NCBI RefSeq assembly: GCF_901765095.1
Contig: NW_021963017.1
Location: 302,253 to 366,252, forward strand
Length of the DNA: 64,000 bases
From: Microcaecilia unicolor
Taxonomy: Eukaryota
Reading direction: 5' to 3'
Part shown: positions 673 to 24,658 of the stretch, one piece after another
Layout: each line of letters starts with the position of its first letter
Numbering within the stretch: position 1 is the first letter of the stretch
Notes under the pieces: model-generated
The model's input: only the letters and a program-made list of their open reading frames with translations
Told to the model about the DNA's origin: nothing
Database searches by the model: none
Position numbers and translations under genes: made by a program

Positions 673-1193
673 TGTGAGGTCTTAGTGATACCAAGGTTCT
701 ATGGCTTCCAGATTTTCGGTTCAAGGCAGGGGCCAGAACTAGTTCCTCTCGGGGACGGTTTAGGGAGGCTCAGCGGTATAGGCCGGGCAGATCGAGTGGG
801 ACCTACCCCTAGCTGTCTGTTCGTCTGTCCAATTTAGATTGTAAGCTCTGTTGAGCAGGGACTGTCTTTTCATGTTAATTTGTACAGCGCTGCGTAAGTC
901 TAGTAGCGCTATAGAAATGTTTAATAGTAGTAGTAGTAGGACCTCTAGGGGTCGGTTTTTCCAGCGCACACAGTTCTTTCGTGAGAGTCGTCGCGGAGGG
1001 CGTGGCTTTTCCGCGGGAGGTTAGTATTCAGGCCGCAATTCCCAATGAAGGTGTGGCGGCTTAGGCTCTGTTGCATGTTGGGGCTTGGCTGAGTCTGTTT
1101 TACCAGAGCTGGGCCCAAATCAGGTCAGATCAGTGGGTTCTCAAGGTGTTTCGAGGCGGATATGCGCTGTAATTCGAAAGCTGTTCTCCCGAA

Positions 1194-2650: not shown

Positions 2651-2895
2651 TTTGGAGAATCTTTGAGCACTGGTGTGAAGACCATCGAGTTCGGCCGGTT
2701 AGCTCTTCGGTGGCGGAAGTTTTGGAATTTTTGCACGATGGTGTTGATAGGGGTCTGGCCTTGTCTACACTGAAGGTTCAGGTGGCAGCTTTGTCATGTT
2801 TTCGTGGGAAGCTTCAGTGAAAGTCCTTCGCTTCTGTGCCTCAGGTAGTGCGTTTTTTGAAGGGTGTTAAGTTGCTGCGTCCGCCTCAGTGACGG

Positions 2896-3606
2896 ATGGT
2901 GCCTCCGTGGGATTTGAAGCTAGTTTTGAATGCTTTGATCAGGCCTCCGTTTGGGCCTCTGGTATCGGCATCTTGTAAGGATTTATCTTTAAAGACGGTC
3001 TTGTTGGGGGCGATTACTTCAGCACGGAGGGTTTCAGAGCTTCAGGCTTTGTCTTGTAGGGAACCATTTTTGTCCTTTCTGAGGGAAAGGTTTCGTTGCG
3101 GACGGTGCTTTCCTTTTTTGCCCAAGGTGGTTTCCGAGTTCCATGTTAATCAGGTCATCTCTCTGCCAGTGTTGGGTGATATGGCTGGAGATTCGGAGCA
3201 ACGTGGTATTGCCAAGCTGGATGTCAGGAGAGTTTTGAGTTGTTATCTCTCTGGAACTCAGGACTTCAGAGCCTCTGACCGTTTGTTCGTTCTTCATGGT
3301 GGCCCAAAGAAGGGTGCAGCGGCTCCTAAGGTGACCATAGCACGGTGGTTGAAGGAGGCGGTTGCATCTGCTTACTTGGTGAAGGGTCCTGTGGTGCCTA
3401 GGGGCTGGTCTGCTCATTCCACTAGGGGAATGGCAGCCTCGTGGGCGGAGAATAGTATGATTTCTCCATTAGATATTTGTCGGGCTGCGGTTTGGTTTTC
3501 GTTGCATTCCTTTGTGAAGCATTATAGGATTCCTGTGCATGCGAAGGACGAGGTGCGCTTTGGGGCAGCTGTTTTGACCTCTGGCCTTAGTAGGTCCCTC
3601 CCGTAA
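2896..3606 (+). CDS. Tyrosine recombinase (integrase-type YR) of DIRS copy A, an uninterrupted 236-aa ORF
   Basis: It contains box I ARRVSELQAL, box II HSTRGMAASWA (His-x-x-Arg) and a C-terminal KHYRIP that is the candidate catalytic Tyr. It is collinear with the disrupted YR of the main copy. Confidence 0.7.
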   Translation: MVPPWDLKLVLNALIRPPFGPLVSASCKDLSLKTVLLGAITSARRVSELQALSCREPFLSFLRERFRCGRCFPFLPKVVSEFHVNQVISLPVLGDMAGDSEQRGIAKLDVRRVLSCYLSGTQDFRASDRLFVLHGGPKKGAAAPKVTIARWLKEAVASAYLVKGPVVPRGWSAHSTRGMAASWAENSMISPLDICRAAVWFSLHSFVKHYRIPVHAKDEVRFGAAVLTSGLSRSLP

Positions 3607-3639
3607 GTTAGTTACTGCTCTGGTACGTCCCACGCGTCT

Positions 3640-3737
3640 TGACCGGTCTGGAGGGTCGCTGAGGAAGGTGAAATTAGATCTTACCTGCTAATTTTCTTTC
3701 CTCTAGACCCTCCAGACCGGTCAAGAGCCCGCCCTGT
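3640..3737. repeat. ICR-like hairpin of DIRS copy A
   Basis: The sequence cttgaccggtctggagggtc (3640-3659) is followed at 3670-3737 by the exact reverse complement of the right terminus at 4128-4186. Confidence 0.6.
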
Positions 3738-4127
3738 CTGTATTGGAGGCCAGGAGGTGTGTTTGTTGGATAATTCTTGGCTGCTGTAGATTGTTGTTTC
3801 TCTAATTGCAGACTCTGTTTATTTCTGTTTTGTGATAGGAGTCTGGGACAGGTGAGGCTCTTCTTTGATAGTCCACCTGTAGAAGCCCAACTGTTTTATC
3901 AAAGGCAAAGGAACATGTTTCCGTAAGAGCAAGCGGAAGATGTTTCTTGTTTTTGCAGTTTACTGTGTCCATGTACAGGGTTGCTAGTTGTTGTTAGTGT
4001 TTTTTGTTTCTCTGCTTTGTCAGGGTTATACTGGCTAGTGGAGGTTCTGCACAGGTTATATATACAGGCTTCAAAAGCTTAGTGTTTTCTCAGTCTCCCT
4101 CTGCTGGTAGGAGGACATAACCCACGC

Positions 4128-4186
4128 GTCTTGACCGGTCTGGAGGGTCTAGAGGAAAGAAAATTAGCAGGTAAGATCTAATTTCA
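4128..4186 (+). repeat. Right terminal repeat of DIRS copy A
   Basis: The sequence is cttgaccggtctggagggtc plus tagaggaaagaaaattagcaggtaagatctaatttcacc. It is complementary to 3670-3737. The same architecture recurs at 8910-8960 and 19858-19920. Confidence 0.55.
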
Positions 4187-6626
4187 CCTTTCAGTACAAA
4201 GCCCTTCCCTCCCCCCCCCCCCTACCAGCCTCAAGGTATTCACCAAATGCATTGTGGTTGTGGCAGCCTACCTACACAAGCAAATACTCCTTGATGTTTC
4301 CGTACTTCAAAGAATGACTTCTACTTCACCACCAGATCTAAATCTATCTTTGCCCATACATTTTCCAGCAAAATTGTGTCTATAGAAAAAGCAGGTGCAA
4401 GTGACCTTATTTTCTACCTGTGGTAAATGTAAAGGCCATGTATACACTTCCACTTTAAGAACTCATGCAAAGTCCACAGTAAAAGTTATGCACAATCTTT
4501 GTCCCAGTGTGAACAGTTTGAAAACTGCCCCCCTATTTTGCATTATTAGGCATCATATTTTATACAAGCTACAATATATATCCTAACAAGTAGAAAGACT
4601 GAAGGCACTTTTCCTAACTAGTTTCACAGTGTACACCAATTGTTCTTTGGCATCCTTACCAGACCAGTCCAGAACCTGTGGGCTGTACAAATTGACCAGC
4701 AAATGGGGACATCCTTAATTGCTCTGGCAGATGGTGACAGGCAGACTCTTCAGCTCCTGATCTGGTTACTGAAGCATCTCTTGCAAAGTGGTACCTCACT
4801 TGGTTGTAAACTTTAAAAAAAAAAGTTAAGGACATATAGCAAATTTAATTTAATCTGGAGCAAGGATTATAATTGGAGGAGTGCAAGTTCTTCTTCCCAT
4901 CCCCTTCCCTTTCCCCTCCATTGTTCACTGCTGTTTGTTTTTTCTTTCCCTTGAAAGGGGTTTAAATAATTGGATGGGAAGTTGTTTCCTCACCTTAAGA
5001 CATCATAAGAATTGTTGTGCAGCATTTGTTTCAAGCTACACTAGTGGTTAGAGGAAGCAGTTGGGAATATACACCAGTACCATGAGAAGGGATGATTCCC
5101 TTCAACTAGTCCTTAGGGATCCTGCATTAGAGGCCACGTGCTCATTCCAGCAGCAGTGCTTCTTTCAGAGTGCCTAAGCTAAAGCACCTGTCTTGCTTTC
5201 CAGCTTGGCCTGTGCACCTGAGGTAATTTTCAGGGTACGCTATAGGATGCAAACCTCAGTAGAAGAGGATAACTTGGAGGAGACTGTGACAAAACAGTGG
5301 GTTTGTAAGCCTGTAAACTGTATTATTTCTTGAAGTGTATTTCTCTAGTTTGGCCAGCAGGTGGTACATGTTTTATGTTTAAAGCTGTTAAAGAGAAATG
5401 ACTGTACCTTGTTTAGTTTAACACAAAGAAGTAGTACCCTGCAGTGATAAGGCCAGCTACTTTTAAAAAATGTTGTTCTGGGCTCTGGCCCAGGAGCTCA
5501 AATTCAGTCTGGAAATACTGGATTTTTCTCCAGTCTCAGTTTGGAAGTAGAGAGAGAGTGACCATTTTACTGAGACCCTGTGAACAGTTATATTCTGTAT
5601 CCTGTGAGCAGCTATATTTCCTGTACTTCCCAGGCTCTATCCAGTTAGTGATAAAATGTTTAGATAGTTTTATAATTGATCCTTATTCAGTTACCTGTTG
5701 TTTTCCATCTGTTTTTATAGTTCACTGTTCAGTATTTTTATAACCATAAAACCTTTTTAGATTATTGCCTCTGCTTGTCTGGACTGACTAAGAAGGTAGT
5801 TTGTGTGTTGGGGCTGTGACTGCTTTCTAGGAACTGTGGGAACACTGGGTCCCAGCAACCTAGAAATCACTGGGGATAACTTGAGAGCAGGAGACTTGCC
5901 AGGTGGGACCCAGTCGGTGGGAGAAGGATGCTAGCGCAGAGCACATACCCAGGTGCAGGCAGACCTGAGCTGTGCTGGGGATAGACCCTCTAAGTGGCCG
6001 CAAAGTTAGCCCCAGATGAGTGGCTAGTTGTTTCATGACAGAGTCCAAATAACCCTCCCCCCTCCCCCCGCTGGTTCATTTTCCTTCTTCCAAAATTTCT
6101 AACATTTAACTCTAAAGCCAAGACACAAGCCTTGTGCAAATCTATATTTTTTGGTGTGCCATTATAGGTGAGGTTCTAGCACCGCAAGTAACAAGGGATG
6201 ACTTTTCGTACCCTTGGCCTGGGGGAGTTCAGGTTGTAGCCACTTTCCTTTGCTGGCAGAAGCAGCATCTTGATCAGCATTTAAGCACAGTTATTCTCTC
6301 TGTAGTAGTGTGGCCCATGCCGCTGAGGAGTTCCTCGGGGCACATTTTGGAGGGAGCCCCCAGCAGACTGCATTTAGCATGGGCAGCAGCTCTTTTGGTT
6401 CCAGCAGCCTCTAGTTGACTGTTGTCCGCAAAACAAGCCAGGACCCAACTTACCAACTATCTTTTGAGTAAAATGAAAAAGTGACATTTAGTGGTGCTTT
6501 GCAAACCTGTGGGTCATGAATATAAGCTTGGGAAGACTGGCTACCTTGAGCAACCTTCTGAAGTAACTCTGGTCTCTGAGTCTTTAGTACAGTATTTTGG
6601 CTTCCTGCCTTCGTTGCTAATGGGAG

Positions 6627-6812
6627 TGGAGGAGTGGCCTAGTGGTTAGGGTGGTGGACTTTGGTCCTGAGGAACTGAGTTCAATTCCCACTTCAGGCAC
6701 AGGCAGCTCCTTGTGACTCTGGGCAAGTCACTTAACCCTCCATTGCCCTATGTAAGCCGCATTGAGCCTGCCATGAGTGGGAAAGCACGGGGTACAAATG
6801 TAACAAAAAAAA
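6627..6812 (+). mobile_element. tRNA-derived SINE
   Basis: It has an A-box-like tagtggttag head and a tail motif gtaagccgcattgagcctgc...gggaaagcacggggtacaaatgtaac. Related copies lie at 17342, 51925 and 24536 (minus strand). Confidence 0.6.
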
Positions 6813-8507
6813 CCCAAATTCTTAAAGGAAGGTCTTGTCTCTGGTGAACAGCTTATCTGCCTGAAGGGGATGACTGAGTTCCAATGGTTTTCACAGAGAT
6901 CACCATAACAGCAGGGTTCTTTGTTCTATGGATTTGGGCAATTGTTCCTGAAGCATTCTCTGAGAGAGTTTTATTGGTTGTACCTTTTTATTTGCAAAAA
7001 GGTATTTGGAGTGCATCCATTTTCAATCCCTGTGCTTTAAGACACTGAAGAGATGGCAGCCCAAAGTTTGGTTTTCTGTTCTTCTGCATAATATTTGAGT
7101 TGCTTTTCTGTCTGTGTTAGTGGCATTCTTTTCCTTTCTCTGGTTTTATTGTAAACTGTTTTGGCCTGCCTTTAGATTAGGTGATGAAGCAAGTTGAAAT
7201 GGACATAAACATACTATACTTCTTCTAACCTCTTGGCTAAGTGGTCAGTCTCTTCTAGGGCAGCCAAGTTTCCTGTTGAGGCTTACTCTTCTTAGGTGAG
7301 AGACTCCATCACCAAGTCATTGTAAATTTTCCTTCAAGTTCAAGGAGTATTCCAATTTAATTCTACATCCGATTGCTTCTGCACCACATGGAGCCTTAGT
7401 CATGGGGCTAGATAAAGGTGCAGGAATCAGTGCAGTGTCCATAAATTCAGTCTCATGGCCTTGGATTCAAATAACGTCCTTAACGGAGTTTTCTGTTTTC
7501 TCACTAGTTGATACACTCTTAGATCTATGCGTGTAGTGTTCTCTTGGAGTTCTAGCATGGTGCAGTATAACGTAATGGCTTTGGTTCAGCATTGTGTTCT
7601 GAGATGTCAACCTTGAAACTACCATTTGGAAAATAACAGCATCAGGTACTGGCCCATTGACTGGGATGCTCTGGATCAGGTGACACAAGAGGTTTAGTTT
7701 TGGTCCACAGTTTTGTGATCCTTCAACTCTCTGGAGCTTTCTGCCATTTGACTACTGCTATAGGCCTTTCTCCTTCCTCTTCATGGAAGAGCATTGAGGG
7801 CGTTTCTACCAAAGAGAGAGCTTAGTGCAGTCAACAGATAAGGAGGTATAAGAAGCATTTTCTTTTTCTATCTTCAGTGCTGATTGCTAGTATACAAACC
7901 ATTTCTCCAACCCTGAATGTATGGAAACTGAAGTATATGTTCTAGTCATCTCCATGTTAGATTGGGTGCTCCAGAGGTTCTCTCTCTCTACCACTATTTT
8001 CCTATAGCACCAAACTAACCATGGAGGTTTTGGTTATTCAGTTTTAACCTGAGACATTTCAACATCTTTGGATTTCCCATTAGATGATATTTTACTGCAA
8101 GAAATGTCTCTTATGTTTCTATTACAGATTGGCTCTTGAGTGGTCATGCTTCAAATGCTGTAGATTTCCAGGAGCATATCTTAGTCATGCTTTTTCAGTC
8201 TTAGAACTGCCTTCCTTCTTTAGCATACTTGAGAGTTTGCAGAGGAGGCAGTTCTTCCTCTGTTGAATCTTTCTTTTCTTTAGGATAGAATCCAGGTAGA
8301 AATAACTTGGGATACCTTATAAGTTCAAGTTGCAGCTTTATCATGCTTTCAAGGCCTCCTGAAAGGTTTTATCAAGCATTAAATCCACATGTAGGTCGCC
8401 TTCTCTAAGGTGGGATGTTGTACATCCTCCTATGCTTTTCTCCTGTCCTGAGTGGATATTCTGGAGTCCCACCCATCTTGGGAACTACTTTAATACATCC
8501 CACAGGT

Positions 8508-8960
8508 TTTGGACTGGTCTGATGAAGAAGCTAAGGAAGGAGAAATGTGGCCTTTCCTGCTAATTTTCTTTTCTTTAGTTCCACCAGACCTCTCCAGATG
8601 CCCTCCCTAATATATTTCTAGTTCTTAAATTAATTTAGTATGCTTTAATATTGCTCTTCTGACTCTTTTTATCAACAGTTAAACTTCAGTTTTCTCTAAC
8701 AGTTTAGCTTTTTGAAGTTTTTATTAGCAGTATGTTAAATGAATATTTTTATTACAACAACTTGAGCGAAAAAGAAAACAGATGGTCCACTGTTTTGTCT
8801 TTCAAAATACTGAGCATTTAAGGCTGCACGGTGCCCTTATTAGGTGAAGCATGCAGAACTTCTTTTTTTTTCTCTGTCTCCATCTGCTGGTTGGCGGGCA
8901 TAGCCCACAGGTTCTAGACTGGTCTGATGGAACTAAAGGAAAAAGAAGTATGAGGTAAGA
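8508..8960 (+). mobile_element. Solo DIRS 3' terminal module, made of an ICR-like hairpin, a spacer and a right terminus
   Basis: The hairpin spans 8508-8598, with ggactggtctgatgaag... pairing to ...ttccaccagacctc. The terminal unit at 8910-8960 (actggtctgatggaactaaaggaaaaagaagtatgaggtaagaccctaattt) parallels 4128-4186 of copy A. Confidence 0.5.
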
Positions 8961-9141
8961 CCCTAATTTTTCCATGCTGCCATTTTAAAAAACCCATTTA
9001 GCTTTGTCAGTTTTGCATAGACGTAGTAGCAATAAATCTCTCTCTTCAGATTTCTGCGTCCTCACCCCCCTCCCCCAATCCTATCACTGTTTACAAGTAC
9101 CATGGAAATGTTTGACAATTATTTGAAACAATTGTTTATAG

Positions 9142-9228
9142 GTGAAGGAAAAGGACCAGGCTCACCAGGAATACAGACAAGCTGTCAGTGAAGGCCATGG
9201 AGCTTACTTGATGGATCAGGATGCACCG
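9142..9228 (+). CDS. PARP4: PARP4 exon, the region upstream of the VIT domain
   Basis: It translates to VKEKDQAHQEYRQAVSEGHGAYLMDQDAP, which matches human PARP4 ...KEAHQEYSQAVSEGHGAYL.SQDAP. It has an AG acceptor (tttatag) and a GT donor (ccg|gtgtgt). Confidence 0.75.
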
Positions 9229-11914
9229 GTGTGTATTTCTGTAAATGTGTTGATTTTTTACATTGTTGAGATAAAATCCTAATCTAAGATTGTGATCTGA
9301 ACCGATACCTGTTTTGGAACTAGAGCTGTAATAGGGCAACGATATTGAGATTGTACCACTGGAAAACATTTTTGTCTGTAGTTGATGCTTTCAATTAGTA
9401 GATTGTGGAGATCATTTCAGAAGCTTTGAACAGCATCTACACATGTCAATTGTTGTTTACCTATATGTACAATCTAGAAGTATAAATATAACTATCTTAG
9501 AATGCCACTGTTTACATGTATAGATGGCCCAGGATGCCAAGATTCAAAGCGGTTGTGTTAGGTGTGGTTTGGAAAAATATGCACATACCATATATACTCT
9601 ATTAGAAGTCAGTGTCATGTAAAAGTCAAATTTTAAAACTAAAAATATAGACAGAAACGCTGTGACCCAAGTATACATAGAGGCTCCCCTCCAGCCCTTC
9701 CTCCCTCACCTGGATCAGCACCTCTCTCTCTCTCTCTTCTACCTCCAGGATCCAGAATTTTTTTTTTCTCTCTCTCTGAATAAAGTTACATGGATGAGAT
9801 ATGTTCAACTTTAAAACTTGCTATTTGTGCAGAACCACTAAAACAGATAAGTTTAGCTGCTATGGGGCTGGCTACTAAGCCGCATTAAAATCTTGCATTT
9901 TACTGCAGCTCAATTTAACATGAAAGTTACTAACTTGCGGCAACTTAGTACCAAGGTTAGTGACTCTAGTGATAATTGCAAATTGCTGTATTTATTTAAC
10001 TTTACAAGCTGTGTTATTCTTCTTCCAGGAGTATTGGTCTGGTAGCACGTGGCCCAGTGTTCCCAGAAAGCCTTTCTTAAAGGAGCCAGTGCCTTTCTAA
10101 ATCATTGCTGACCACCCTGCCCCCTAGTCAAGACCTCCAATTCCACCAGGACATACTTCCAGTCTGGATTCTCCCCCCCCCCCCCTCACGTGTCACCCCA
10201 TAGACTCTCTTTTCCTCCAAGAAGTCCACCCAATTCCCCCCCCCCCATCCCACCACAGGCCTACCTCAAGAACTCTGGTGGTTTAGGGTTATGGGAACAG
10301 GAGCAATATCCAGGTTTTCCTGCCCCCTCCAGCACCAGGTTCAAAATGACACTAGTTGAACCCTAGCAGTAGTACCATGGTAGCATGAACCTCTTGTAGT
10401 AGTACTGCTACACTACCACTAAGGTTCTGCTGGCACCATTTGGAACCCAATGCTGGAGGGGACAGGAGTGGCTGGAGATCACGCCTACCCTATAACCGTA
10501 GGCCACCAGGGAGTTCTTTAGGTAGGCCTGTGGGTAGGGTTGGGGAGGTTCTTCTGTAGGGGTTGAGGGGGGAGGAGAGTCCATGTGCTGAATTCATATA
10601 GGGGTAGGAGGCTTTGGACTGGGGGTTTGGAGAGGAAGTATTCTGATAGGGTGGGATTTTTAACGGGAGGGGGGGAGGAGTTAAAAATTTGTAAAGATAT
10701 TGGGCCATATGTTAGCAGCCCAGTGCTCCTAGACAGGATATAAGGCCAGCTTTGAGCAGGGATTATTTTTCTAGAAATAATTAAGACTGTGAAGTACTTC
10801 AAGCTGTGTTATTCAATTTGCATAATAATGAGGCATTTTGTATGCTTTGCATTTCATTATGCAACCTTTGATGACTTAACCTAATGTGCCTTATGGCAAA
10901 ATAACACATGCTTTTGCTATTAACACACAAGAGGCAAATATGTGTTATACAGCTACCTTACTTAAAAAGATAATTTTTTAGCTAGCCCCAGAATGCCCAC
11001 AGCTATGTGTAGGGTAATTTTACAATGGCATTTTTGCATGCGTATGCCAGTATACATGCAAAAATGCCGTTTATAAAATTGCCTTGCATGTACAAGTAGG
11101 CACATACTTGTATGCAACACTGATGTAGGTGTGTACTGTGGCAAGAGTGGGTGGAACATAGTCAGAGTTAGTTTGCATATGTCATTTTTAAAATGCCTGA
11201 GATCAGGCCTATTATATGTATGTGCATTTACACTAGCTCTCGAGCTGTGTAAATGTATGCACATTAATTTTTCTCACAATGTCTGCAGGATTTCTGCTAG
11301 TATTTTTATAAAGACACATAGGTTCCTATGAGCCTTTATAAAGTAGGCTACAAAAGAGGTGCCTGCTTGGCCTTCGCATATAAACAACTTTTAATAATAT
11401 TACCTTGTTAATGATTTAAATGATTAAAGTTATCTGTATAAGTAGCATTTTTTTTCAAATGCAGTCAACCACGCTGCCGACCGTATACGTGATTTTAAAT
11501 ATTGCCCCCATGATGCCCAGTTATTCATTTCACAGAATTGTTCTGGGAGGAATGAGGTTGAGGTGATTGTGATTAAATTTAATTATCAAAATCTCAGGGG
11601 GAGGACCTGGTGATTTAAAAATTGAAGCATTGGTGCAAGGCTATAGGTTTGCTTAGAGTGCCAAATACCCTTGCACTAGCTCTGTGTATTCTTAAGTTGA
11701 ATGATTATATCTTCAGGAGGTCAGGCGTGGGTTTTTTTTGTTGTTTTTTTTAGCCTGCCTTCACAGGGTGTTAATGGAAAAAAATCAGAATTTTGAGAAA
11801 AACTTTCTACATACAAGGCCATTGACATTGATTATAACATAAGCAGATAAATCATACTGGTTTGGTAGTACTGTGCTAAAATGTGAAATCTTTAAGCAAG
11901 TTCTTGTTTTGTAG

Positions 11915-12079
11915 GATGTTTTTACTGTAAGTGTTGGAAACTTGCCAGCAGAAGCTACAGTTCTGATCAAAATCACTTATATCACTGAGCTGAGTATGCA
12001 GCATGGATCTGTATGTTTCCACATACCTGCTGCTGTGGCACCTTGGCAACAGGACAAAGCACTGAAGGAAAATACACAG
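11915..12079 (+). CDS. PARP4: PARP4 exon in the VIT domain
   Basis: It translates to DVFTVSVGNLPAEATVLIKITYITELSMQHGSVCFHIPAAVAPWQQDKALKENTQ. The splice junctions are tttgtag| and cag|gtttgt. Confidence 0.85.
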
Positions 12080-12383
12080 GTTTGTGTAATGTGGAACTAG
12101 GGAGGTAATTTCTACAGGAAGACCTTTTGTAGCTGCAGGACTGTCTGATTGGAGGCAGCAAGATGGCTTACTGTGCCATTTTGTTTTATGTTTCTTTGAT
12201 GAAGTTTTGCTCCCAAGTCACGGCCTGGCACCTAATTACTTTTATCACTGACTGTGTGTCAATCTCTTTATTTGTTTGAAAACCTTAAAACTATTCTTAG
12301 TCATGTAGCAAAACCCTCTGTTCTGAAGTGACTTCTGCTGCTTTAGGGTAATTGATTAAACATTGGTGTATTATTTTTCACAG

Positions 12384-12430
12384 GACACTGTAGAGAAGGT
12401 TTATATTAAAGAAGGATGGGCACAAAAAGG
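12384..12430 (+). CDS. PARP4: PARP4 exon that ends at a probable GC donor
   Basis: It translates to DTVEKVYIKEGWAQK plus the first two nucleotides of a Gly codon. Only the donor aag g|gcaagt keeps the frame into the next exon. A conventional GT donor 5 nt downstream gives a stop. Confidence 0.65.
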
Positions 12431-12568
12431 GCAAGTAATTAAAAAAAATATATGTATTTACATGCTGTGACAGTTTGTCACTATTTCAAAATAATGTATA
12501 TTGTGAATAGTTCAGCCAAATGATTTGGCGCTTTGTGAGTTATATGTGTTTTCTCTTTTGCTGTTCAG

Positions 12569-12650
12569 GGCATTCTCTTTGGATATGTCTGTTGAAATGC
12601 CGTACAAGATTGAATTCATTTACAGCCTAACACACAACATCAAAATAAAG
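12569..12650 (+). CDS. PARP4: PARP4 exon in the VIT domain
   Basis: It translates to (G)AFSLDMSVEMPYKIEFIYSLTHNIKIK, matching the human SFSLTMSIEMPYVIEF. The junctions are ttcag| and aag|gtaagt. Confidence 0.8.
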
Positions 12651-13285
12651 GTAAGTGAAGATCCTTTGCAACTGCAAAATAACTATTTCTAAGCATATTC
12701 TACCTTGATATTTTTACATAATTTAAGATTGTGGAAAACACTGATAAAATTATTAGAAAATGTGTTCAGTTAGAATTGTTGGGCCTGACGTTCATCCTGT
12801 GGTAGTCAGCGTTTTTTAAGCCACTGAAAGCTGTGGGCAGAGTTAAGACTGGATATTCATTGCTGGACTGTCAAGTCTTTAGAGGAGGAGGAGTAGGCTA
12901 ATGGTTAGTGTAATGGGCTTAGAACCAGGGGAACCCTGCGATGCAGCTCCTGAGCACATACACTTATCTAGGCAGGACATTTGCATCTTCTAATTTATGT
13001 GTTTACTTGCAAACTCCATAATCATGTAATTGCATGTACTTTTATGCCACTCCGTATTTTATAAGAGGCTTGTTACTTGCATATGTGGCCACATATGCTT
13101 GGAAATTACTTTACAAATTTACCTCCAAAGTGTGCTTCTCAGTTATTAACATCAGAATTAGCACATCTCTGTTGTTTGCATACCAGCTATATTATATAAG
13201 GAAGTCTCGTGGAAAATCACATAATACGCAGAAAGTTATCATTTTGTGAAAGTTATTCAGTTTTATTCCTCATTTGTTCTTTTAG

Positions 13286-13423
13286 AAAACAGAGTGTAAA
13301 GCTGTGATCAGCACCTGCAAGGACTCTTCATTAGACAGTGATGGCTTTGATTTACGTATATGCATGTGTAAAGCCCACCCTCCCAGAATGTGGGTGGAAA
13401 AGCACCCAGAGCATGAGAGTGAG
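13286..13423 (+). CDS. PARP4: PARP4 exon
   Basis: It translates to KTECKAVISTCKDSSLDSDGFDLRICMCKAHPPRMWVEKHPEHESE, matching the human KTDCKAVIST...LPRMWVEKHPEKESE. Confidence 0.85.
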
Positions 13424-13884
13424 GTAATACTTATTCTTGACAAGATCTTCAGTGTATAAATTGGATTAGCTCACTTGGTCTATGATGCTGTTCTCAGAAA
13501 TTGCTGAGGTGGGGACTGTGAGTAAATATTATTAATCCCAGGTTTCCTGTAAGCCTCTCATATGGTAAATGATTACTTCGTCCTGAGAGTAAAGTTGCAG
13601 AAAATTTTTGCATCCACCATGCATTAACTGCAAAAGGTAAGGCATATTAGGTGCACCCCTCTGTGGTTTTCAGCTTTTTTGGGGAGGGCTTCTGTGCAGT
13701 GGCATGGTAGATAATGTGGATTATAGTTATCTGTGCAACAGTTAATATTGCAGGGTCATCCACTATGTTAAGTACCTCAAGAAAACTGCCCATTCCCCCA
13801 CCCCAAAATGACATTTCCCATGTTAGCTGTTTACTGTGGCAATTAGCATGGGGTGCTTCCTGCATTAATCAGCTAACTCAGCTT

Positions 13885-14185
13885 CAGTGGCGTACCAAGG
13901 TGGGGGCAGTCCACCCCGGGTGCACGCTGCTGGAGGGGTGCCGCGCGCCTGTCGGCTCCGCTCGTTCCGTGCTCCCTCTGCCCGGGAACAGGTTACTTCC
14001 TTTTCTGGGGCAGAGGGAGCATGGAACGAGCGAAGCCGACAGGCGCGCAGCACTCTTCTTCCCCCCTCCCCCCAGCAGGTAAAAATGCACCCGGGGGGAG
14101 GGGGTGTCCTTTCGCCGGGGTGGTGGGGGTGTCGCACCCGGGGGGGGGGGCACATTGGCGATCTGCCACCCTAGGAACGCCACTG
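13885..14185. mobile_element. hAT-like MITE (301 bp) flanked by an 8-bp TSD, ctcagctt
   Basis: Its terminal inverted repeats (TIRs) begin cagtggcgtacc... and end ...ggaacgccactg. Identical 8-mers ctcagctt lie at 13877-13884 and 14186-14193. The body is GC-rich with an internal palindrome. That palindrome explains the overlapping ORFs on both strands here. Confidence 0.65.
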
Positions 14186-15539
14186 CTCAGCTTAGTAAAG
14201 AGCTCTCTAAAAGTGCCTGAGATGTTTGCTATGTCCTGGCCTTTTTGTTGTCTGTTTGTATGCAAATAAAGCACTGCTTAGCGTGTGCCTCTCTGCATTG
14301 GTAAATATTAGTGGACCTCTGACACTGTGAGGCAGATGCATGAAAGAAACTTAGAAGAACCGAAAACGTAAAGGTCCACGTTACAAGATACCGATTATGA
14401 AAAATTGACAGATGCTCATAACAAATTGCATGCAAATGAGTCGCTCGGTAATACAAAAAGGTCGATGCATGAAAGTCTCGCTAACCTGTTGAAATTCAAG
14501 GTAGCGGTGTAGCAAACACATGTGCACAATAGTCATTCGCTAAGCACACAGCAAATACTATAGCTGTTGTACGCATGTCTAAGTAGATCGCATCATAGAC
14601 GTGCATCCTGGGCATGTGAGATAGACGTCACTTGTAAGCAGAGCCTTATAGGCCACGGTCCGTGCGTGATTTTTTAATAGCTGTGCAGATGGTTACCGTA
14701 TGCTGTGCCACATTGCTTGCATCCCGTTTTTTTGAGGTGGTTTCACATTTTCATTGGTGAGTGTGGAGGGAGGGAGGAAGGGACAAAAAAATGGCAAAAA
14801 TACTTACAGATCTCGGGTACGAAGACCGCCTATTGAAGAGGTGCTGCAGCACTTCCCAGCCCTCGTCTATTCTTATTATGTTTCTCCTCTTCCCCTGTTG
14901 GGGGAAGAGGCACTTCTCATTTATATAACTATGAGCTGCGTAAGCCAGAGCACATCTGTGTTGGAGAAGTTGGGCTTTCTCCTGCAGGGACCATGTGCAG
15001 CCATGGCTTCTCCAAGACGGATGTACACATACGCACATATGCGTGAATGTCAATGACAGTGCTTATGCACGCACTTTATGGATGTGTTTATGTTGACGGC
15101 AGATGACAGCTCTCTGGAGTTATCGGCAGCCCCTGAGCACCCATTAAATATATCACGTTAAAGGTATGCAGACCTTTCTGTGCATTGCCTGTAAATGGCT
15201 GTGCATCATGCGTTGCCATCATTTAAATGAGAACCACATAATTGCAATACATTTGCACAGCTTTTTTGTTGCGCATTTGCGAGTGTGGTAAACAGGTTAC
15301 TGTAGACTTTTGCACATTCATCGCTAGATACCGTGGTCACTAAGCCAGTTGAAACTGGCTCAAAACAATTGTCCCGGCACGGTGAGTTTGATGCAAAATT
15401 ACAAATAATGAAGCATGGGCCATCGTATGGCATAGCTGTGATCCACCACAGCACAGGAGGCCTGTGTTTTGGGCTCTAGTTCATCAGGGTAAACAGCCAA
15501 AATGTATACTTCCATTAAGTTACTTCCCACTATTTCAGG

Positions 15540-15640
15540 ACGTGTGGGCAGTTCTGTCCATCGACCAGCAGGTGGAGATAGAAAACTCAGAACTGAGCTG
15601 TCCCATATACACTCAGCCAGCCAGCCCAGTTCTCCAGTAT
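15540..15640 (-). repeat. Fragment homologous to the spacer of the DIRS 3' modules
   Basis: It shares ccatcgaccagcag.tggaga.agaa...ctgagctgtcccatata.actca with 19790-19857, in the opposite orientation. Confidence 0.3.
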
Positions 15641-16959
15641 TTTCTGTTTCCATCAGGAAAAATGGACATGCATACTTTTCTGCTCCTGGTTCTGAGGCCC
15701 TGCTCCTGGCCAGTTAGTCAACTGGTCTCCCAGTCAAGCTTGGCGGGTAAAGGTCTAGTGGGAGTCATATCTGGTGGTTCCAGATCCCTGTCTCTGTTCC
15801 CCATAGAACCCTCCCCTCTCTGATTTGCCCTCTTCTCTCTCTGGTCCCGCAGAACCCTGCCCTCTTTGTTTTCCTCTCTGCTCTCTAGTGCTGCCGGACA
15901 ACATTAAAGCGGTATTAAAAAAAAAAATAAAGAAAAAAGGGCTCTCTTTATCACAGCAGCTTCCTGGGACACGGAGCAGGCATTGCAGGACTGTACTCCT
16001 GTGCAGCTCTGGGACAGCCCCCAGTCGGGGGGCTGTGAGGTGAGAGGTTTTTCAGGGGTGACAGTGGACTGGGGGGTACCCTGTATTGGAACGGCAGTGG
16101 AGAAGCACTGGGGGCCGGTTTCGGCAGTTTGAAAGAAAAGAAAGGCATGATGTCTGCTCTCCTGGCGTTTTCTACCACGGTGGGGGAAGTGCTCCTGACG
16201 GTCAAGGACTGCAGAGGCTGGGTGTGGCTTCCATCTAGCATGCTTCTGTTTGCTCCTGGCCTGGGGCTACAGTTGAGTGGCTGCTTCTTCCATGGGCTGC
16301 GGCTCCCCTGCCTTTGGCAGTGCTGGGTCAACGCTGGGATCAGTCCCGGTAATGCCGTGTCCCTGCCTTATTTGCTTGCCCTCCTCGGTGTGCCTTGGAG
16401 GGCTGGCGTGCCACTAGTTCTAGTTAAAAAAACAAAAAAACAAACACCCTCAAGATAGTCGCGTGAGCTGGGCTGCTTGTCTCCATCCGGCACTTTGTCT
16501 GGGTTCTTTGGGGGCTGTTGGCATTCCTGGAGGTTTGCTCTGCTGGTCCCCTTTGGGTCACTAAGTCAACCCGTTGCACCTCCCCCCCCCCCCCCCTTTT
16601 GGACCACTTGAAGTGTCTGTGCCTTCTCCTGGTCTGTCTATGCAGTCGCCCTCTGGGGCTGCGGTAGTCGCACAAGGGCTTCAGCCTCTTGTAATTTGTC
16701 CCCGATGTGGTCTTCTCCTTGGTCTTCAGGGGTCCTTGTTTCTTCGTTGTGAAGGTCTCTGACCACCGGCAGTCTCTTTGCTCAGGGCTGCCGTGGTCTC
16801 TTAGAGCTTAGGTCACAGACCTCTCATACTTTTCGGGATAGCAGCAGTAGCCTCCTTTCTGGGGACATTTTTTTTTCCTGTATGTGTCTGTGGCAGCAGC
16901 CACTTCTATTCCACAGAGTGTACTTCTCTGCACCTCTAGGGTGTTTTTTTTCTGGAGAG

Positions 16960-18190
16960 TCTCAGCAGCTTCAGCTGTTTTCTCTGTTGAGAGTTGCAGA
17001 TGCCTCCTGGTTTTCACCGGTACGGCAGTCTCCTCTCTTTGGGATTGCGGGCGCCTCCTGGGCTTTGCAGCCTTGGCAGTCTCCCCTCTGCAGAGTTGCA
17101 GATGCCTTTGGGGCTGCACTGCTGCGGCAGTCTCCTTGCTTCTGAGTGGCGTACCTCTCCTGGTCCTCTCGGCCACAGCAGCCTCCTTTTGGGTGGAGTT
17201 GCAGATGCCTAGGGGCATCACAGCTGCGGCAGTCTCCTCTTCGGAATTGCAGACGCCTATAGGGCTTCATAGCCACAGCAATCTCCTATATGAAGTTGCA
17301 GACACCTCCCGGGCGTCACAGCCATGGCAGTCTCCTCCTTTGGAGTAGCCTAGTGGTTAGTGCAGTGGACTTTGATACTAGTGAACTGGGTTCAATTCCC
17401 AGTGCAGCTTCTTGTGACTCTGGGAAAGTCACTTAACCCTCCATTGTCCCAGGTACAATAAGAACCTGTATATACTATGTAAACCGCTTTGAATGTAGTT
17501 GCAAAATCCACAGAAAGGCGGTATATCTGGTACCAGTCCCTCCCTCCCGGTATTCACAGCCACGGCAGTCTCCTCTTCACAGTTGCAGACACCTCCCGGG
17601 CTTCACAGTCACGGCAGTCTTCTCTTTGGTTTCAAATGCTTCCCGGGCTTCACAGCCACAGCAGTCTTCTCTTCGGAGTTGCAGAGGCCTCCTGGGCTTC
17701 ACAGCCACGGCAGTCTCCTCTTTGGAATCTTAGATGCCTCCTGCACTTCACAGCTACGGTGGTCTTTCCTTCGGAGTTGCAGTCACCTCTTGGCCTTCGC
17801 AGCCGAGGCAGTTTCTCCTTTTCAGGATTGCAGTCACCTCTTGCATTCACAGTCCTGGCAGTCTCCTCTCCAGAGATGCAGTTGCCTCCTGGTCTTCTAG
17901 CTGCTGTTTTCTCCACACTTTGGGGTTGCAGTCACCTCCTCAGCTTCACCATTATGGTAGTCTTTTCTCTTTGGAGTGGTTGTCACCTTTGGGCTTTCCA
18001 GCTATGACGGGCCTCTGTCTTCGGAGTTGCAGGTCACTCTGGTAATCCGTAGTCTTGGCAGTCTCCCTTCCTGGAATCCAGTGGTTTTCTTCTCCAGGGC
18101 TACACACTTCTTGGGGGCAACATACAGCTCTGGAGGTCCTCACTGTTTGCAGTCTCCTCTCTTCTGAGTTGCAGTCTCTTCTCTTGGGAG
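16960..18190. repeat. 48-bp minisatellite array of about 25 units, interrupted by a SINE
   Basis: The unit is cacggcagtctcctcttcggagttgcagacacctcccgggcttcacagc, with variants. A SINE sits at 17342-17527. Six-frame ORFs across the array show repeated peptides and are artefacts. Confidence 0.8.
17342..17527 (+). mobile_element. tRNA-derived SINE inserted into the minisatellite
   Basis: The sequence ggagtagcctagtggttagtgcagtggactttg...gtcacttaaccctccattg...gtaaaccgctttgaatg interrupts the 48-bp periodicity. Confidence 0.6.
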
Positions 18191-19546
18191 TTGAGGTCCC
18201 AGTTTCTGTGGTTGCTGCTGTTCTGAATTGATGCCATTGGGGGTATTTTCTCGGCTACAGGCTTCCCAGTCGGCTCCAGTAGTTCAGTGTTACTGCGGCA
18301 GTCTGCTTTCTCTGGAGTGGCGGACATCTTACAGCTGGAGGTTCGGTCAGCTTCTGCAGTCTTTGGACTTGGGATCTCGTTGGGAATGGCTGATTCATGC
18401 CACAGCGGCGGCCAGAATGTTGAGCTCCTGCCAACACTTGGGGAGAGCAAGTTTCCTCACGGCTCAGCAACGTTGCTGTTGGTGAGGTGGATTTGCCTAA
18501 TCCTCAGTGTGCTCATCCTAGAGCATGGACTCAGTGCAGGTCCTGGAACCTATGTCTGTGGCCAGGGAAGTGGTTCCTGGTGGGGAGGGATAGCTTCTGT
18601 CTATGGCAGTTCTCCCTTCTCTTTCGGTGATCCCCAGCCCCCCAGAGTTGACGCCGGCAGTGGCCTTGGTCCGCCAGGCAGGGCATGCACTGGGAGTTGT
18701 TCCCACAGCCGCCCTCCCTCAAGAGTTCCGCTTCCTATTTTGTATTGGGGCTGGCTACGGCATTCTTCCTTGACTTTCCATACAGAGGAGGTCCCTTCTG
18801 GAAAGAGGTTCGCCTTTGGAACCCCTTTCGAACTTTGTGTTCGGTTTGATTTGTCTGCCTTGTGCTGCGGACTCTGCCACATCTGTCCTTTGGCCCTCTC
18901 CGGAAGGCCAACAATATGGTTCATACGTTGCGTGAGGTGTTTTTGATGTCTCTTACCTCTGGAGTGCGGATTTCTGGGCGCGGTAGTGCTGGGACCTGTT
19001 CCTCTGTTGCCGGAGGCTGGGGTCTCAGTTCTGTCCGTCCCTCTCTGCCTCAGTTGGTTTCAGTATTCCAAGTCAGTTGGTTGGCGTATCATCTGGTGTT
19101 TCGCCGGGATGTTGCATTTCGCCTCACTGAGGCTTCTGGGTGGCCGTTGGAGTTGTTTGCACTTTCTTGAGGCTTCTCCTTCCTTCTGATGTTTGGTTCG
19201 TCTGTTCAGCCCTTTTAGGGATGACAGAGGTTGAGTCTCATGGCGTCCTTGGTCACCTTTGCCTCTTGGTTGGTAGGGACGCTTACTTCAGCTGTCTCTA
19301 CGTGCTGGATAGCAGCATCCTGTGCAGCATCCATCTTGTTGGCCCGGTGGCTTTTGGCAGAGCAGCAACATGGTTGTTATTGTATGCGTTTGCTGGGCTT
19401 CTCAGTGGATATTGTGGCCGTTCGGCGGGGGTGGTCAGGGCTTCGGTTCTCCAGGCAGCGGAGCTGGGGTCCCACCCTGTTAGGATTGCTTTTGAATATC
19501 CCATGTGTCCTGGAATTGTGGGAAGTAACATAATGAAGGAGAAATT

Positions 19547-19920
19547 AGGGCTTACCTGATGATAATTTTCTTTCCATTAGTTCTTCACAGTATTCCAGGA
19601 GCCCACCCCTGGACCTGTTTTGGTGGCAGGCTTTACAGCTTATGCACGGGCTGTCACTCTTTTGTCTATCTCTAAAGATACCGGGGACCTTCCGAGAGTC
19701 CGATTGTTTGGTCGTTTACAGTTGTAGAGGTTTTTGGTTTTATTCCTTCTGCTTGTTTAGGCAAATACTGGAGAACTGGGATGGCTGGCTGAGTATATAT
19801 GGGACAGCTCAGTTCTGTCTCCATCTGCTGGTCGATGGACAGAACTACCCACACATCCTGGAATAGTGTGAAGAACTAATGGAAAGAAAATTATCAGGTA
19901 AGCCCTAATTTCTCCATAGA
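19547..19920 (+). mobile_element. Solo DIRS 3' terminal module, made of an ICR, a 252-bp spacer and a right terminus
   Basis: Positions 19547-19605 are the reverse complement of 19858-19920 (cctggaatagtgtgaagaac plus taatggaaagaaaattatcaggtaagccctaatttctcc). The layout is the same as copy A at 3640-4186. Confidence 0.55.
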
Positions 19921-24283: not shown

Positions 24284-24535
24284 ATTAAATGTTAATAATG
24301 TTAAAAAATAAATGCATTAATAGTGTGAACCAATGAAGAAAAGTGTGCAGAACCCATTGCCATTCAGTAAAATTGGTAATGTGCAAAGCTGAGGTCACCA
24401 AGAGAAATATATTGGTTAATGATTGTTTGAACTGACACTGACAGAAGATAGTGGGAGCCGATTTATAATATAAGTGGTTACCTTTATTATATGCAGGTAC
24501 TTTCTCTGTCTCTACTGGGCTGACAATCTTAGTTT

Positions 24536-24658
24536 GTGTACCTGGGGCAAGGGAAGGTTAAGTGACTTATCCAGGATCACAAGGAGCTGCAGTAGGAATT
24601 GAACCCATTTCTCCAGGTTCTCAGCTCACTGCTCTAACCATTAGGCCAGTCCTCCACT
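24536..24658 (-). mobile_element. tRNA-derived SINE on the minus strand
   Basis: The reverse complement reads agtggaggactggcctaatggttagagcagtgag...gggttcaattcctactgcagctccttgtgatcc...gtcacttaacc. Confidence 0.5.

What the first reader, a model, noticed from the sequence alone, without database searches (positions are those of the whole stretch)
8508..19920. Solo DIRS 3' terminal modules, each an ICR plus spacer plus right terminus, recur as independent units
Three loci share one architecture. They are 3640-4186 attached to copy A, 8508-8960 and 19547-19920. Each has a hairpin (ICR) containing the reverse complement of a downstream terminal unit of the form ...ggtaag..ctaattt.., separated by a spacer of 250-390 bp. 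A spacer fragment also lies at 15540-15640. Such 3' modules without a coding body suggest either non-autonomous derivatives mobilised in trans or products of ICR and ITR recombination. The latter is the step proposed for forming the DIRS circular intermediate.
Basis: partly seen in the sequence, partly recalled or inferred. Interest (0 to 1): 0.5.

Follow-up and report, generated by a model that had tools for sequence, protein, structure and literature searches.

The report
Degenerate DIRS elements, not solo ends

Summary
The repeated architecture is real. In all three places an ICR lies 255-402 bp upstream of the right terminus it complements, and the terminus carries ..AGGTAAG..CTAATTT.. .

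The modules are not solo. Each observable one has its own left inverted terminal repeat 4.2-4.4 kb upstream:
- C: 15510-15642 is the reverse complement of 19763-19884.
- B: 4643-4711 is the reverse complement of 8875-8941.
- In both, the left half of the ICR complements that left terminus specifically.

So B (about 4643-8974) and C (15510-19918) are complete ITR-body-ICR-ITR DIRS1-like elements. A runs off the window start.

The bodies are degenerate:
- B keeps only faint, collinear RNase H and recombinase traces.
- C keeps a 40-residue recombinase remnant and recombinase 3'-end homology. The rest is non-coding, GC-rich DNA with a 49-bp tandem array.

C's paired cis sequences differ by only about 7%. 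Its recombinase signal matches 20-30% decay in simulation. C was therefore probably non-coding when it inserted, which implies trans mobilisation.

An ICR x ITR deletion origin is not supported. The features are ordinary for DIRS1-like elements, and non-autonomous DIRS-order elements are already known (TOC1).

The parts
1074..2593 (+). Element A: decayed RT/RNase H region. It is split over two reading frames, and profile positions 148-270 (the RT core) are missing.
   Evidence: hmmsearch with a profile built from 109 DIRS RT/RH proteins; tblastn to D's RT.
2602..3582 (+). Element A: tyrosine recombinase (YR) region, matched by one continuous profile alignment in a single reading frame (the listed ORF itself spans 2896-3606).
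   Evidence: YR profile positions 3-329, 392 bits. Best database identity is 54%, to a Rhinatrema bivittatum protein.
3624..3735 (+). Element A: ICR. The left half is 3628-3664. The right half is 3665-3726.
   Evidence: Right half matches 4129-4190 at 62/62 as reverse complement. Left half is a direct copy of 4121-4167 at 88%. Hairpin z -9.3.
4028..4190 (+). Element A: right ITR plus right extension (..GCAGGTAAGATCTAATTTCACCTT). A's left ITR lies beyond the window start.
   Evidence: The inner limit is taken from the match to fragment 29312-29394.
4643..4711 (+). Element B: left terminus and left ITR.
   Evidence: Reverse complement of 8875-8941, 53/69 aligned bases. nhmmer minus-strand hit 4657-4711, E 4e-8. 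4643-4687 is the reverse complement of B's left ICR half 8494-8538 at 82%. It matches B's own partners better than those of A or C.
6624..6812 (+). tRNA-derived SINE inserted in B's body. It is secondary and not part of the DIRS element.
   Evidence: 86% identical to 51925-52106; other copies exist in the window.
7716..7889 (+). Element B: faint RNase H remnant (..NSLELSAI..AVNRxGGIRS..).
   Evidence: RT/RH profile positions 396-454. E 0.03 in the small search and 0.15 in the whole-window six-frame search. It is on the + strand and collinear with the other B remnants. A sub-threshold RT piece lies at 7226-7372.
8269..8358 (+). Element B: faint YR N-terminal remnant.
   Evidence: YR profile positions 43-72, E 0.04-0.19. 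This is weak. Its position implies about 0.7 kb of the YR region is deleted.
8494..8608 (+). Element B: ICR. The left half is 8494-8538. The right half is about 8534-8598.
   Evidence: The hairpin has decayed (z -0.4).
8865..8974 (+). Element B: right ITR plus right extension (..TGAGGTAAGACCCTAATTTTTCCAT).
   Evidence: nhmmer E 1e-33; pairs with the right ICR half at 49/64.
15510..15642 (+). Element C: left terminus and left ITR (starts CTTCCATT..).
   Evidence: Reverse complement of 19763-19884, 86.5% over 133 columns. That is 115 of 122 aligned bases plus three indels. nhmmer E 2e-12. 15513-15548 is the reverse complement of the left ICR half 19500-19535. It has no right-extension complement, so it is a true left end.
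15643..16965 (+). Element C: 5' body. It is GC-rich and A-poor, with no recognisable coding signal.
   Evidence: No RT, YR or gag profile hit. No nucleotide match to other DIRS sequences. Composition.
16966..18082 (+). Element C: array of 49-51 bp tandem repeats, interrupted by a SINE at 17342-17455.
18856..18975 (+). Element C: YR remnant (LVLRTLPHLSFGPLRKANNMVHTLREVFLMSLTSGVRIS). By my reading (not tested against a catalytic-residue annotation) it includes the position of the first catalytic Arg box.
   Evidence: YR profile positions 108-147. E 1e-4 in the small search and 4e-4 in the whole-window six-frame search. Its distance to the ICR is collinear with A.
19354..19493 (+). Element C: sequence homologous to the 3' end of a DIRS YR gene.
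   Evidence: blastn 19354-19608 vs Rhinatrema L007:11292-11549, 62% over 267 columns, E 1e-9.
19496..19608 (+). Element C: ICR. The left half is 19500-19537. The right half is 19538-19600.
   Evidence: hairpin z -3.4.
19763..19918 (+). Element C: right ITR (19763-19884) plus right extension (..ATCAGGTAAGCCCTAATTTCTCCAT).

Best explanation
The three modules are the ordinary 3' ends (recombinase 3' end, two-part ICR, spacer, right ITR with right extension) of three separate, co-oriented DIRS1-like retrotransposons of related families.

The elements:
- A runs from before position 1 to 4190. Its left end lies outside the window.
- B spans about 4643-8974 (4.3 kb).
- C spans 15510-19918 (4.4 kb).
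- B and C each carry all the cis elements. These are a left ITR, an ICR whose left half complements the left terminus and whose right half complements the right terminus plus extension, and a right ITR.

Established knowledge: in the DIRS1 replication model, the ICR is the template or bridge that restores and joins the two termini of the cDNA. The encoded tyrosine recombinase then integrates the element without a target-site duplication. The model is Cappello 1985, as described in PMC7192593 and PMC3266345. ICR necessity and trans action of the RT were shown in PMC7192593.

Shown here:
- The full cis architecture is present in B and C.
- Neither has functional genes.
- A's RT lacks its core.

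Inferred:
- C, whose paired cis sequences are still about 93% identical, was already non-coding when it last inserted. It was therefore copied by proteins supplied in trans.
- B is much older. It is either the same kind of thing or a once-coding copy eroded in place.

The 3' module looked 'solo' for two reasons. It is the best-conserved nucleotide stretch between families. The distinctive AGGTAAG..CTAATTT motif lies in the right extension, which the left end lacks by design.
For: Left partners:
- (I10, I11, I15), and one search show C's ITR pair at 86.5% over 133 columns.
- One search gives nhmmer minus-strand hits at 15509-15585 (E 2e-12) and 4657-4711 (E 4e-8). Both stop before the right-extension positions of the profile.
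- One search aligns B's three cis pairs at 77-82%.
- One search shows 15513-15548 against 19500-19535.
- One search shows each left end scores best with its own right end and own left ICR half. C scores 196 against 60-73. B scores 65 against 38-59.

Coding content:
- Searches used profiles from 109 RT/RH and 108 YR proteins.
- They give A 397 and 392 bits, and D 833 and 379 bits.
- B has only an RNase H trace at 7716-7889 and a YR trace at 8269-8358.
- C has only a YR trace at 18856-18975.
- In the whole-window six-frame scan, only one other hit below E=1 falls outside known DIRS bodies.
- One search shows nucleotide homology of 19354-19493 to a YR 3' end.

Age argument:
- mutated a Rhinatrema element in silico.
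- At 7% change per site it still gives 312-452 bits for RT and 149-280 bits for YR.
- The signal falls to C's level (0 and 12 bits) only at about 20-30%.
- C's cis pairs are 208/223 identical at aligned bases.

Reference element:
- L007:6180-11974 of Rhinatrema bivittatum belongs to the same terminal family.
- It is 5.8 kb, with ITRs 98% identical and both ICR halves 100% complementary to their termini.

Geometry:
- C has a right extension of about 34 nt (19885-19918), ICR halves of about 38 and 63 nt, and ITRs of about 130 nt.
- This resembles the published Anolis and Xenopus DIRS1-like elements. Those also include the start CTT and end CAT seen in C (PMC3266345).
Against: - The copy number of B-type and C-type elements in the source genome could not be measured. 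Trans mobilisation of a family is therefore inferred from one copy each.
- B's remnants are individually at or below significance. Its cis pairs are short and only 77-82% identical.
- The age argument assumes the two ITRs and the ICR-terminus pairs are identical at insertion. That is the model's prediction and matches the young Rhinatrema copy. It also assumes no later gene conversion.
- The outer 'divergent ITR' part is known not to be perfectly paired (PMC3266345).
- The origin of C's 3.2-kb body is unknown.
- Frameshifts in A, D and the Rhinatrema copy could partly be assembly errors.
Confidence: 0.8

Rival explanations
1. The units at 8508-8960 and 19547-19920 are free-standing 3' modules. 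They arose either by recombination between ICR and ITR sequences or as minimal non-autonomous units made only of ICR, spacer and right terminus.
For: - No intact ORF lies upstream of either module.
- The 3' module is the only part of B and C with clear nucleotide similarity to other DIRS copies.
- DIRS structure does contain a short direct repeat, between the left terminus and the distal part of the right ICR half, that could mediate such a deletion (inference; the general idea is raised in PMC8498967).
Against: - Both modules have a cognate left ITR at element-sized distance.
- Both retain the left ICR half and recombinase-derived sequence upstream of it. A left-terminus x right-ICR-half deletion would have removed these.
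- In the Rhinatrema loci, the same kind of module is attached to a full body in all four cases.
Confidence: 0.03
2. B and C are simply old, once-autonomous DIRS1-like copies that decayed and were partly deleted where they sit. No trans mobilisation of non-coding elements is involved.
For: - B has background GC (0.43), CpG o/e of 0.12 and cis pairs of only 77-82%.
- B has collinear RT/RNase H/YR traces, as expected for an ancient full copy with deletions.
- Both elements carry later SINE insertions.
Against: - For C, the cis pairs are about 93% identical, which is about 3-4% change per lineage. The recombinase region keeps its length but has only 12 bits of signal.
- Simulation gives 149-280 bits at 7% change. 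It needs 20-30% change to reach C's level.
- The RT/RNase H region is entirely absent from C.
- C's body still has GC 0.54.
- For B, the expected RT signal at about 12% change per lineage is 150-216 bits, against 2.7 observed.
Confidence: 0.2
3. C is a chimera made after insertion. It was a normal DIRS1-like copy whose gag-RT-RNase H region was replaced by an unrelated nested insertion or tandem-repeat expansion plus deletions.
For: - The 3.2-kb body (15643-18855) matches nothing DIRS-like.
- It contains a 1.1-kb tandem array and a SINE.
Against: - No terminal repeats or other hallmarks of a nested element were found inside C.
- The body has the same A-poor, GC-rich strand composition as DIRS bodies A and D.
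- Replacement would not explain why the recombinase region, still of normal length, is far more decayed than the ITRs.
Confidence: 0.08

Closest known systems
DIRS1-like retrotransposons of tetrapods (AcDIRS1/2 of Anolis, XtDIRS2/3 of Xenopus; Piednoel et al. 2011, PMC3266345; Xenopus families in PMC9210276)
   Same: - ITRs of about 100-150 bp.
- A right extension of about 26-34 bp present only at the right end.
- A two-part ICR of about 40 + 60 bp, complementary to the left and right termini.
- ICR located just downstream of the recombinase gene.
- Start CTT and end CAT, as in AcDIRS1.
- gag with a LAP2alpha-like region, RT/RNase H and YR in related full copies.
   Different: B and C have no functional genes and are about 1.4 kb shorter than the 5.8-kb full-length relative. 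C's body is largely non-coding with a tandem array.
Rhinatrema bivittatum (caecilian) DIRS1-like element at LR584389.1, locus L007:6180-11974, and its neighbours in L007 and L008
   Same: - Same terminal family, with junction ..GAAAATTA..AGGTAAG..CTAATTTTCC|TTTCCCTG.. .
- Same module order.
- Its recombinases are the closest found to A's, at 52-54%.
   Different: - It is a young copy with a full 5.8-kb body.
- Its ITRs are 98% identical and its ICR pairs 100%.
- Nucleotide similarity to A, B and C is limited to the terminal modules, at 62-78%.
TOC1 of Chlamydomonas, called a non-autonomous DIRS retrotransposon in PMC9940879
   Same: It is a DIRS-order element without its own enzymes that nevertheless varies in copy number. 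This is a precedent for trans-mobilised DIRS-order derivatives.
   Different: From my own knowledge, TOC1 belongs to the algal PAT-like branch with split direct repeats. It is not an ITR + ICR DIRS1-like element. It shares no sequence with C.
Solo LTRs, and LARD/TRIM non-autonomous LTR elements
   Same: LARD and TRIM elements parallel C: cis termini are kept and the coding body is lost.
   Different: Solo LTRs arise from long direct repeats. DIRS1-like termini are inverted, and the structures here are not deletion products.

Membership tests
DIRS1-like retrotransposon (DIRS order, ITR + ICR type) | Inverted terminal repeats bounding the element | tested here: met
   - C: 15510-15642 vs 19763-19884, 86.5% over 133 columns.
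- B: 4643-4711 vs 8875-8941, 53/69.
- nhmmer E 2e-12 and 4e-8.
- A's left end is outside the window and could not be tested.
DIRS1-like retrotransposon (DIRS order, ITR + ICR type) | Internal complementary region with two abutting halves, complementary to the left terminus and to the right terminus | tested here: met
   - A, right half: 62/62.
- C, right half: 93.7% over 63 columns. C, left half: 83% over 36.
- B, halves: 77% and 82%.
- Each left half is specific to its own left terminus.
DIRS1-like retrotransposon (DIRS order, ITR + ICR type) | Right extension present at the right end and in the ICR but absent from the left end | tested here: met
   Left-ITR profile hits stop at profile positions 80 (C) and 67 (B) of 112. 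Right ends and right ICR halves reach position 112. Alignment.
DIRS1-like retrotransposon (DIRS order, ITR + ICR type) | Encodes a tyrosine recombinase upstream of the ICR | tested here: inconclusive
   - A: continuous YR-profile match of 392 bits.
- C: only a 40-residue remnant (E 4e-4 window-wide) plus nucleotide homology to a YR 3' end.
- B: sub-threshold trace.
- The feature is met for A. Only relics remain in B and C.
DIRS1-like retrotransposon (DIRS order, ITR + ICR type) | Encodes RT/RNase H (and a methyltransferase-like domain) | tested here: not met
   - A: RT/RNase H present but the core (profile positions 148-270) is missing.
- B: only a faint RNase H trace.
- C: none.
- The methyltransferase domain was not tested.
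- B and C are therefore structural members or derivatives, not autonomous members.
DIRS1-like retrotransposon (DIRS order, ITR + ICR type) | No target-site duplication; element begins and ends with an NTT-type trinucleotide matching the circle junction | tested here: inconclusive
   - C starts CTT and ends ..CAT, as published for AcDIRS1. A ends CTT. D is flanked by CTT at both ends.
- No longer flanking repeat was found. A suspected repeat between left flank and right terminus is not above shuffles.
- The boundaries of the decayed copies are uncertain by a few bases.
Non-autonomous (trans-mobilised) DIRS derivative | Complete cis elements, with a body that was already non-coding at the time of insertion | tested here: met
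   - Met for C. Its cis pairs are 208/223 identical, against a recombinase signal equivalent to 20-30% decay and no RT.
- For B the same comparison points the same way but is weak.
Non-autonomous (trans-mobilised) DIRS derivative | Several genomic copies with the same boundaries and body but different flanks, plus an autonomous partner with matching termini | not testable with these tools
   - The source genome is not searchable here.
- The window holds no second copy of B's or C's body.
- C's longest ORF has no homolog among 1.8 billion representative proteins.
- Exact look-ups of window ORFs found nothing.
Solo terminal module (recombination remnant) | Terminal module with no partner terminus, and loss of everything upstream of the recombination point | tested here: not met
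   Partner left ITRs are present. The left ICR half and recombinase-derived sequence are retained upstream.

The most novel reading that the evidence does not exclude
Element C represents a vertebrate family of non-autonomous DIRS1-like elements. Its structure would be ITR, a GC-rich non-coding body with a 49-bp tandem array, a recombinase pseudogene, ICR and ITR. Such a family would propagate using the RT and recombinase of autonomous relatives. This would show that ITR + ICR are sufficient cis signals in animals. Element A, with its RT core deleted yet a perfect 62/62 ICR-terminus pair, may be a second example.
Probability: 0.45. Interest if true: 0.35.

Novelty: new member of a known kind. 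Interest (0 to 1): 0.2.

Why it matters
This mainly corrects the record. It removes a would-be new class of 'solo ICR modules' and shows these are standard DIRS1-like termini. For annotation, decayed DIRS copies are best recognised by pairing the ICR halves with both termini, not by the 3' motif alone. If C-type copies prove to be multi-copy, they would give natural evidence in a vertebrate that DIRS1-like proteins act in trans on elements keeping only ITRs and ICR. That would complement the Dictyostelium experiments (PMC7192593) and bear on how DIRS elements inflate large amphibian genomes.

Tried and rejected
I replaced it with local profiles built from database homologs.
2. I suspected that C's and D's left flanks repeat the last 25 nt of the right terminus, which could mark the integration core or insertion into an older DIRS end. 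Local alignments are no better than shuffles, so I dropped this.
3. I considered whether the circle junction is a mini-intron (AG|GTAAG .. CTAAT .. polypyrimidine .. CAG), or whether the right extension forms a priming hairpin with AGGTAAG in the loop. The motif is conserved. The small hairpins are not more stable than shuffles (z -1.0 to +1.4). No supporting literature was found. It is left as an unexplained side observation.
4. I looked for other copies of C through its longest ORF (18287-18946). There is no homolog among 1.84 billion representatives.
5. I tried to identify the source contig through exact ORF look-ups. Nothing is on record.
6. Neither A nor D is a plausible autonomous partner of B or C. 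Termini are only 65-77% similar between A, B and C. D belongs to a different terminal family.
7. Two further ITR-like fragments have no ICR partner and are old fragments, not 3' modules. They are 25453-25600, which is the right end of a minus-strand element, and 29312-29394.


Full report
**What the window is.**
The window is vertebrate-like DNA rich in DIRS elements and tRNA-derived SINEs.
- A full DIRS1-like element, D, lies at 29992-36131. It has 155-bp ITRs, a two-part ICR at 35775-35874 and a Pfam-confirmed RT ORF.
- A second copy of that family runs off the window end at 61828-64000.
- The finding concerns a different terminal family, marked by ..AGGTAAG..CTAATTT.. at the right end.

**Checking the observation.**
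The three modules are real.
- Profiles built from the three right ends and the three ICRs recover each other at E 1e-30 to 1e-35. They also recover each ICR's right half as the reverse complement of the downstream terminus.
- Complementarity is 62/62 in A, 93.7% over 63 columns in C and 49/64 in B.
- The arms are 402, about 310 and 255 bp apart.
- The ICRs are hairpins, because the left half pairs with the distal part of the right half. The hairpin is strong in A (z -9.3) and D (z -9.2), weaker in C (z -3.4) and lost in B (z -0.4).
- C's ICR begins near 19496, not 19547.

**The modules are not solo.**
- The repeat scan shows that 15523-15642 is the reverse complement of 19763-19873, and 4660-4711 is the reverse complement of 8875-8926.
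- Alignment extends C's pair to 15510-15642 vs 19763-19884. That is 86.5% over 133 columns, or 115/122 aligned bases plus three indels.
- B's pair is 53/69.
- The right-terminus profile hits both places on the minus strand (E 2e-12 and 4e-8). In both, the match stops before the right-extension positions, as expected for true left ITRs.
- The left half of each ICR is the reverse complement of that left terminus. In C this is 19500-19535 vs 15513-15548 at 83%. In B it is 8494-8538 vs 4643-4687 at 82%.
- Each left end matches its own right end and own ICR better than those of the other two elements.
- So B (about 4643-8974, 4.3 kb) and C (15510-19918, 4.4 kb) are complete lITR - body - lICR/rICR - spacer - rITR - rE units.
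- A's left end lies beyond position 1.

**What is inside the elements.**
I built profiles from 109 DIRS RT/RNase H proteins and 108 DIRS tyrosine recombinases collected with the homology searches. I scanned all six frames of the whole window with them.

| Element | RT/RNase H | Recombinase (YR) |
|---|---|---|
| D | Full RT/RNase H | Present, split over three frames |
| A | RT/RNase H in alternating frames; RT core (profile 148-270) missing | Continuous profile match, 2602-3582 |
| B | Faint RNase H trace at 7716-7889 (..LELSAI..NRxGGIRS..); sub-threshold RT piece at 7226-7372 | Faint N-terminal trace at 8269-8358 |
| C | None | Remnant at 18856-18975 (..FLMSLTSGVRIS..; E 4e-4 window-wide); 19354-19493 aligns at nucleotide level to the 3' end of a caecilian DIRS recombinase gene |

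- C's nucleotide match is.
- All B and C traces are on the + strand. B's are in the right order. C's recombinase remnant is at the right distance from its ICR, but B's YR trace lies much closer to its ICR than in A, implying a deletion of about 0.7 kb.
- Only one other sub-E=1 hit occurs elsewhere in the 64 kb.
- The rest of C's body (15643-18855) is GC-rich (0.54) and A-poor, like DIRS bodies. It carries a 1.1-kb array of 49-51 bp repeats split by a SINE.
- That body matches no DIRS DNA or protein available to me.

**Related sequences from elsewhere.**
- The closest recombinases to A's are from the caecilian Rhinatrema bivittatum, at 52-54%.
- Two 21-kb Rhinatrema loci carry the same terminal family.
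- One young copy, L007:6180-11974, is 5.8 kb. Its ITRs are 98% identical and both ICR halves are 100% complementary to their termini.
- All four 3' modules seen in these loci sit on full bodies.
- The junction sequence ..GAAAATTA..AGGTAAG..CTAATTTTCC|TTTCCCTG.. is conserved across these families, while the coding regions differ by about 35% at the nucleotide level.
- Between families, nucleotide similarity is confined to the left ITR, the recombinase 3' end, the ICR and the right ITR.
- The right-extension motif occurs twice in the 3' module and never at the left end. Together these facts explain why an unaided reader saw only 'solo' 3' modules.

**How it most likely works.**
- In the DIRS1 model, the ICR restores and joins the two termini of the cDNA. 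The recombinase then integrates the product without a target-site duplication.
- The model is Cappello et al. 1985, as summarised in PMC7192593 and PMC3266345. In Dictyostelium the ICR is essential and the RT can act in trans (PMC7192593).
- B and C keep exactly these cis parts.
- The geometry matches published Anolis and Xenopus elements. C has a right extension of about 34 nt, ICR halves of about 38 and 63 nt, and ITRs of about 130 nt. C also has the start CTT and end CAT of AcDIRS1 (PMC3266345).

**Was C already non-coding when it moved?**
- I mutated the Rhinatrema copy in silico.
- At 7% change per site it still scores 312-452 bits for RT and 149-280 bits for the recombinase.
- Signals as low as C's (0 and 12 bits) appear only at about 20-30%.
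- C's three cis pairs are 208/223 identical at aligned bases, which is about 3-4% change per lineage since insertion.
- C's recombinase region still has normal length.
- The simplest reading is that C's lineage had lost its genes well before its last transposition. It was therefore copied with enzymes supplied in trans. This step is inferred, not shown.
- For B, the same comparison gives pairs at 77-82% and an expected 150-216 RT bits against 2.7 observed. That points the same way, but B is old, short and noisy. In-situ decay with deletions remains a live alternative.

**Why the recombination idea fails.**
- The only direct repeat that could delete a DIRS body is between the left terminus and the distal part of the right ICR half.
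- Its product would lack the left ICR half, the complement of the right extension and everything upstream.
- B and C keep all of these, plus their left ITRs.

**Comparison with what is known, and novelty.**
- These are DIRS1-like elements by structure.
- B and C fail the enzymatic criteria, so they are degenerate or non-autonomous derivatives rather than autonomous members.
- Non-autonomous DIRS-order elements are already known (TOC1 of Chlamydomonas, PMC9940879). Degenerate DIRS families are common in Xenopus (PMC9210276).
- Nothing here is a new kind of element.
- The modestly interesting residue is C as a possible vertebrate non-autonomous DIRS1-like family. That needs a genome-wide copy count, which I could not run.

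**Limits.**
- The source genome could not be identified or searched.
- B's remnants are individually marginal.
- The age argument depends on the model's prediction that paired cis sequences are identical at insertion.
- Frameshifts in A, D and the Rhinatrema copy may partly be assembly errors.

Noticed in passing
window 4167-4185, 8954-8972, 19895-19912, 36111-36120; ICR loops 3684-3692, 19551-19559; L007, L008, L006, L001: AGGTAAG (GGTATG in D) lies about 20-25 nt from the right end, and appears as CTTACCT in the ICR hairpin loop. I saw it in almost every DIRS1-like element examined; B's ICR copy is decayed and L004's is only GTAAG-like. The flanking mini-stems differ: GAAAATTAG/CTAATTTTC, CTACA/TGTAG, CAGTTT/AAGCTG and ATTAC/GTAAT. 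Read across the circle junction, the sequence also resembles a splice donor, branch point, polypyrimidine tract and CAG. The small hairpins are not more stable than shuffles, and no literature explanation was found.
   Followed up: partly
window 1074-4190 (element A): A has a perfect 62/62 ICR-terminus pair, a strong ICR hairpin and a continuous recombinase match. Its RT lacks the catalytic core (profile positions 148-270) and is frameshifted. It may be a recently moved RT-defective copy, which would be a second hint of trans mobilisation.
   Followed up: partly
window 4190-4643; L007 4806-6180; L008 4852-6258: DIRS1-like elements of this terminal family sit head-to-tail close to each other. 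A and B are 450 bp apart. The Rhinatrema pairs are about 1.4 kb apart. This fits the reported tendency of DIRS elements to insert near or into other DIRS copies.
   Followed up: no
window 25453-25600 and 29312-29394: These are two old ITR-like fragments of the same terminal family with no ICR partner. The first includes the complement of the right extension, so it is the right end of a minus-strand element. The second is an inner-ITR piece, 74% identical to A's. They are the only truly isolated terminal fragments in the window.
   Followed up: partly
window 29992-36131 and 61828-64000: D is a full-length DIRS1-like element of a different terminal family. Its ITRs are 95% identical and it has gag and RT/RNase H ORFs. 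Its recombinase is split over three frames. A second copy, 93-99% identical, is cut by the window end.
   Followed up: partly
window 22165-24481: An element has 189-bp terminal inverted repeats (96%), an adjacent 205-bp near-perfect palindrome (22355-22784) and a 349-aa ATG ORF (22779-23828). It is probably a DNA transposon. I did not characterise it.
   Followed up: no
window 6624-6812, 17342-17455, 24539-24659 (-), 51925-52106, 60987-61047: These are copies of a tRNA-derived SINE (GGCCTAGTGGTTAGGG..). Two of them are inserted inside DIRS elements B and C. Related sequence at about 75% identity occurs in the Rhinatrema loci.
   Followed up: no
window 53983-54304: A CTC/CTG-rich imperfect 9-bp-phased repeat lies inside ORFs on the + strand (53886-54539). 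It is either a low-complexity coding-like tract or a microsatellite-derived array.
   Followed up: no
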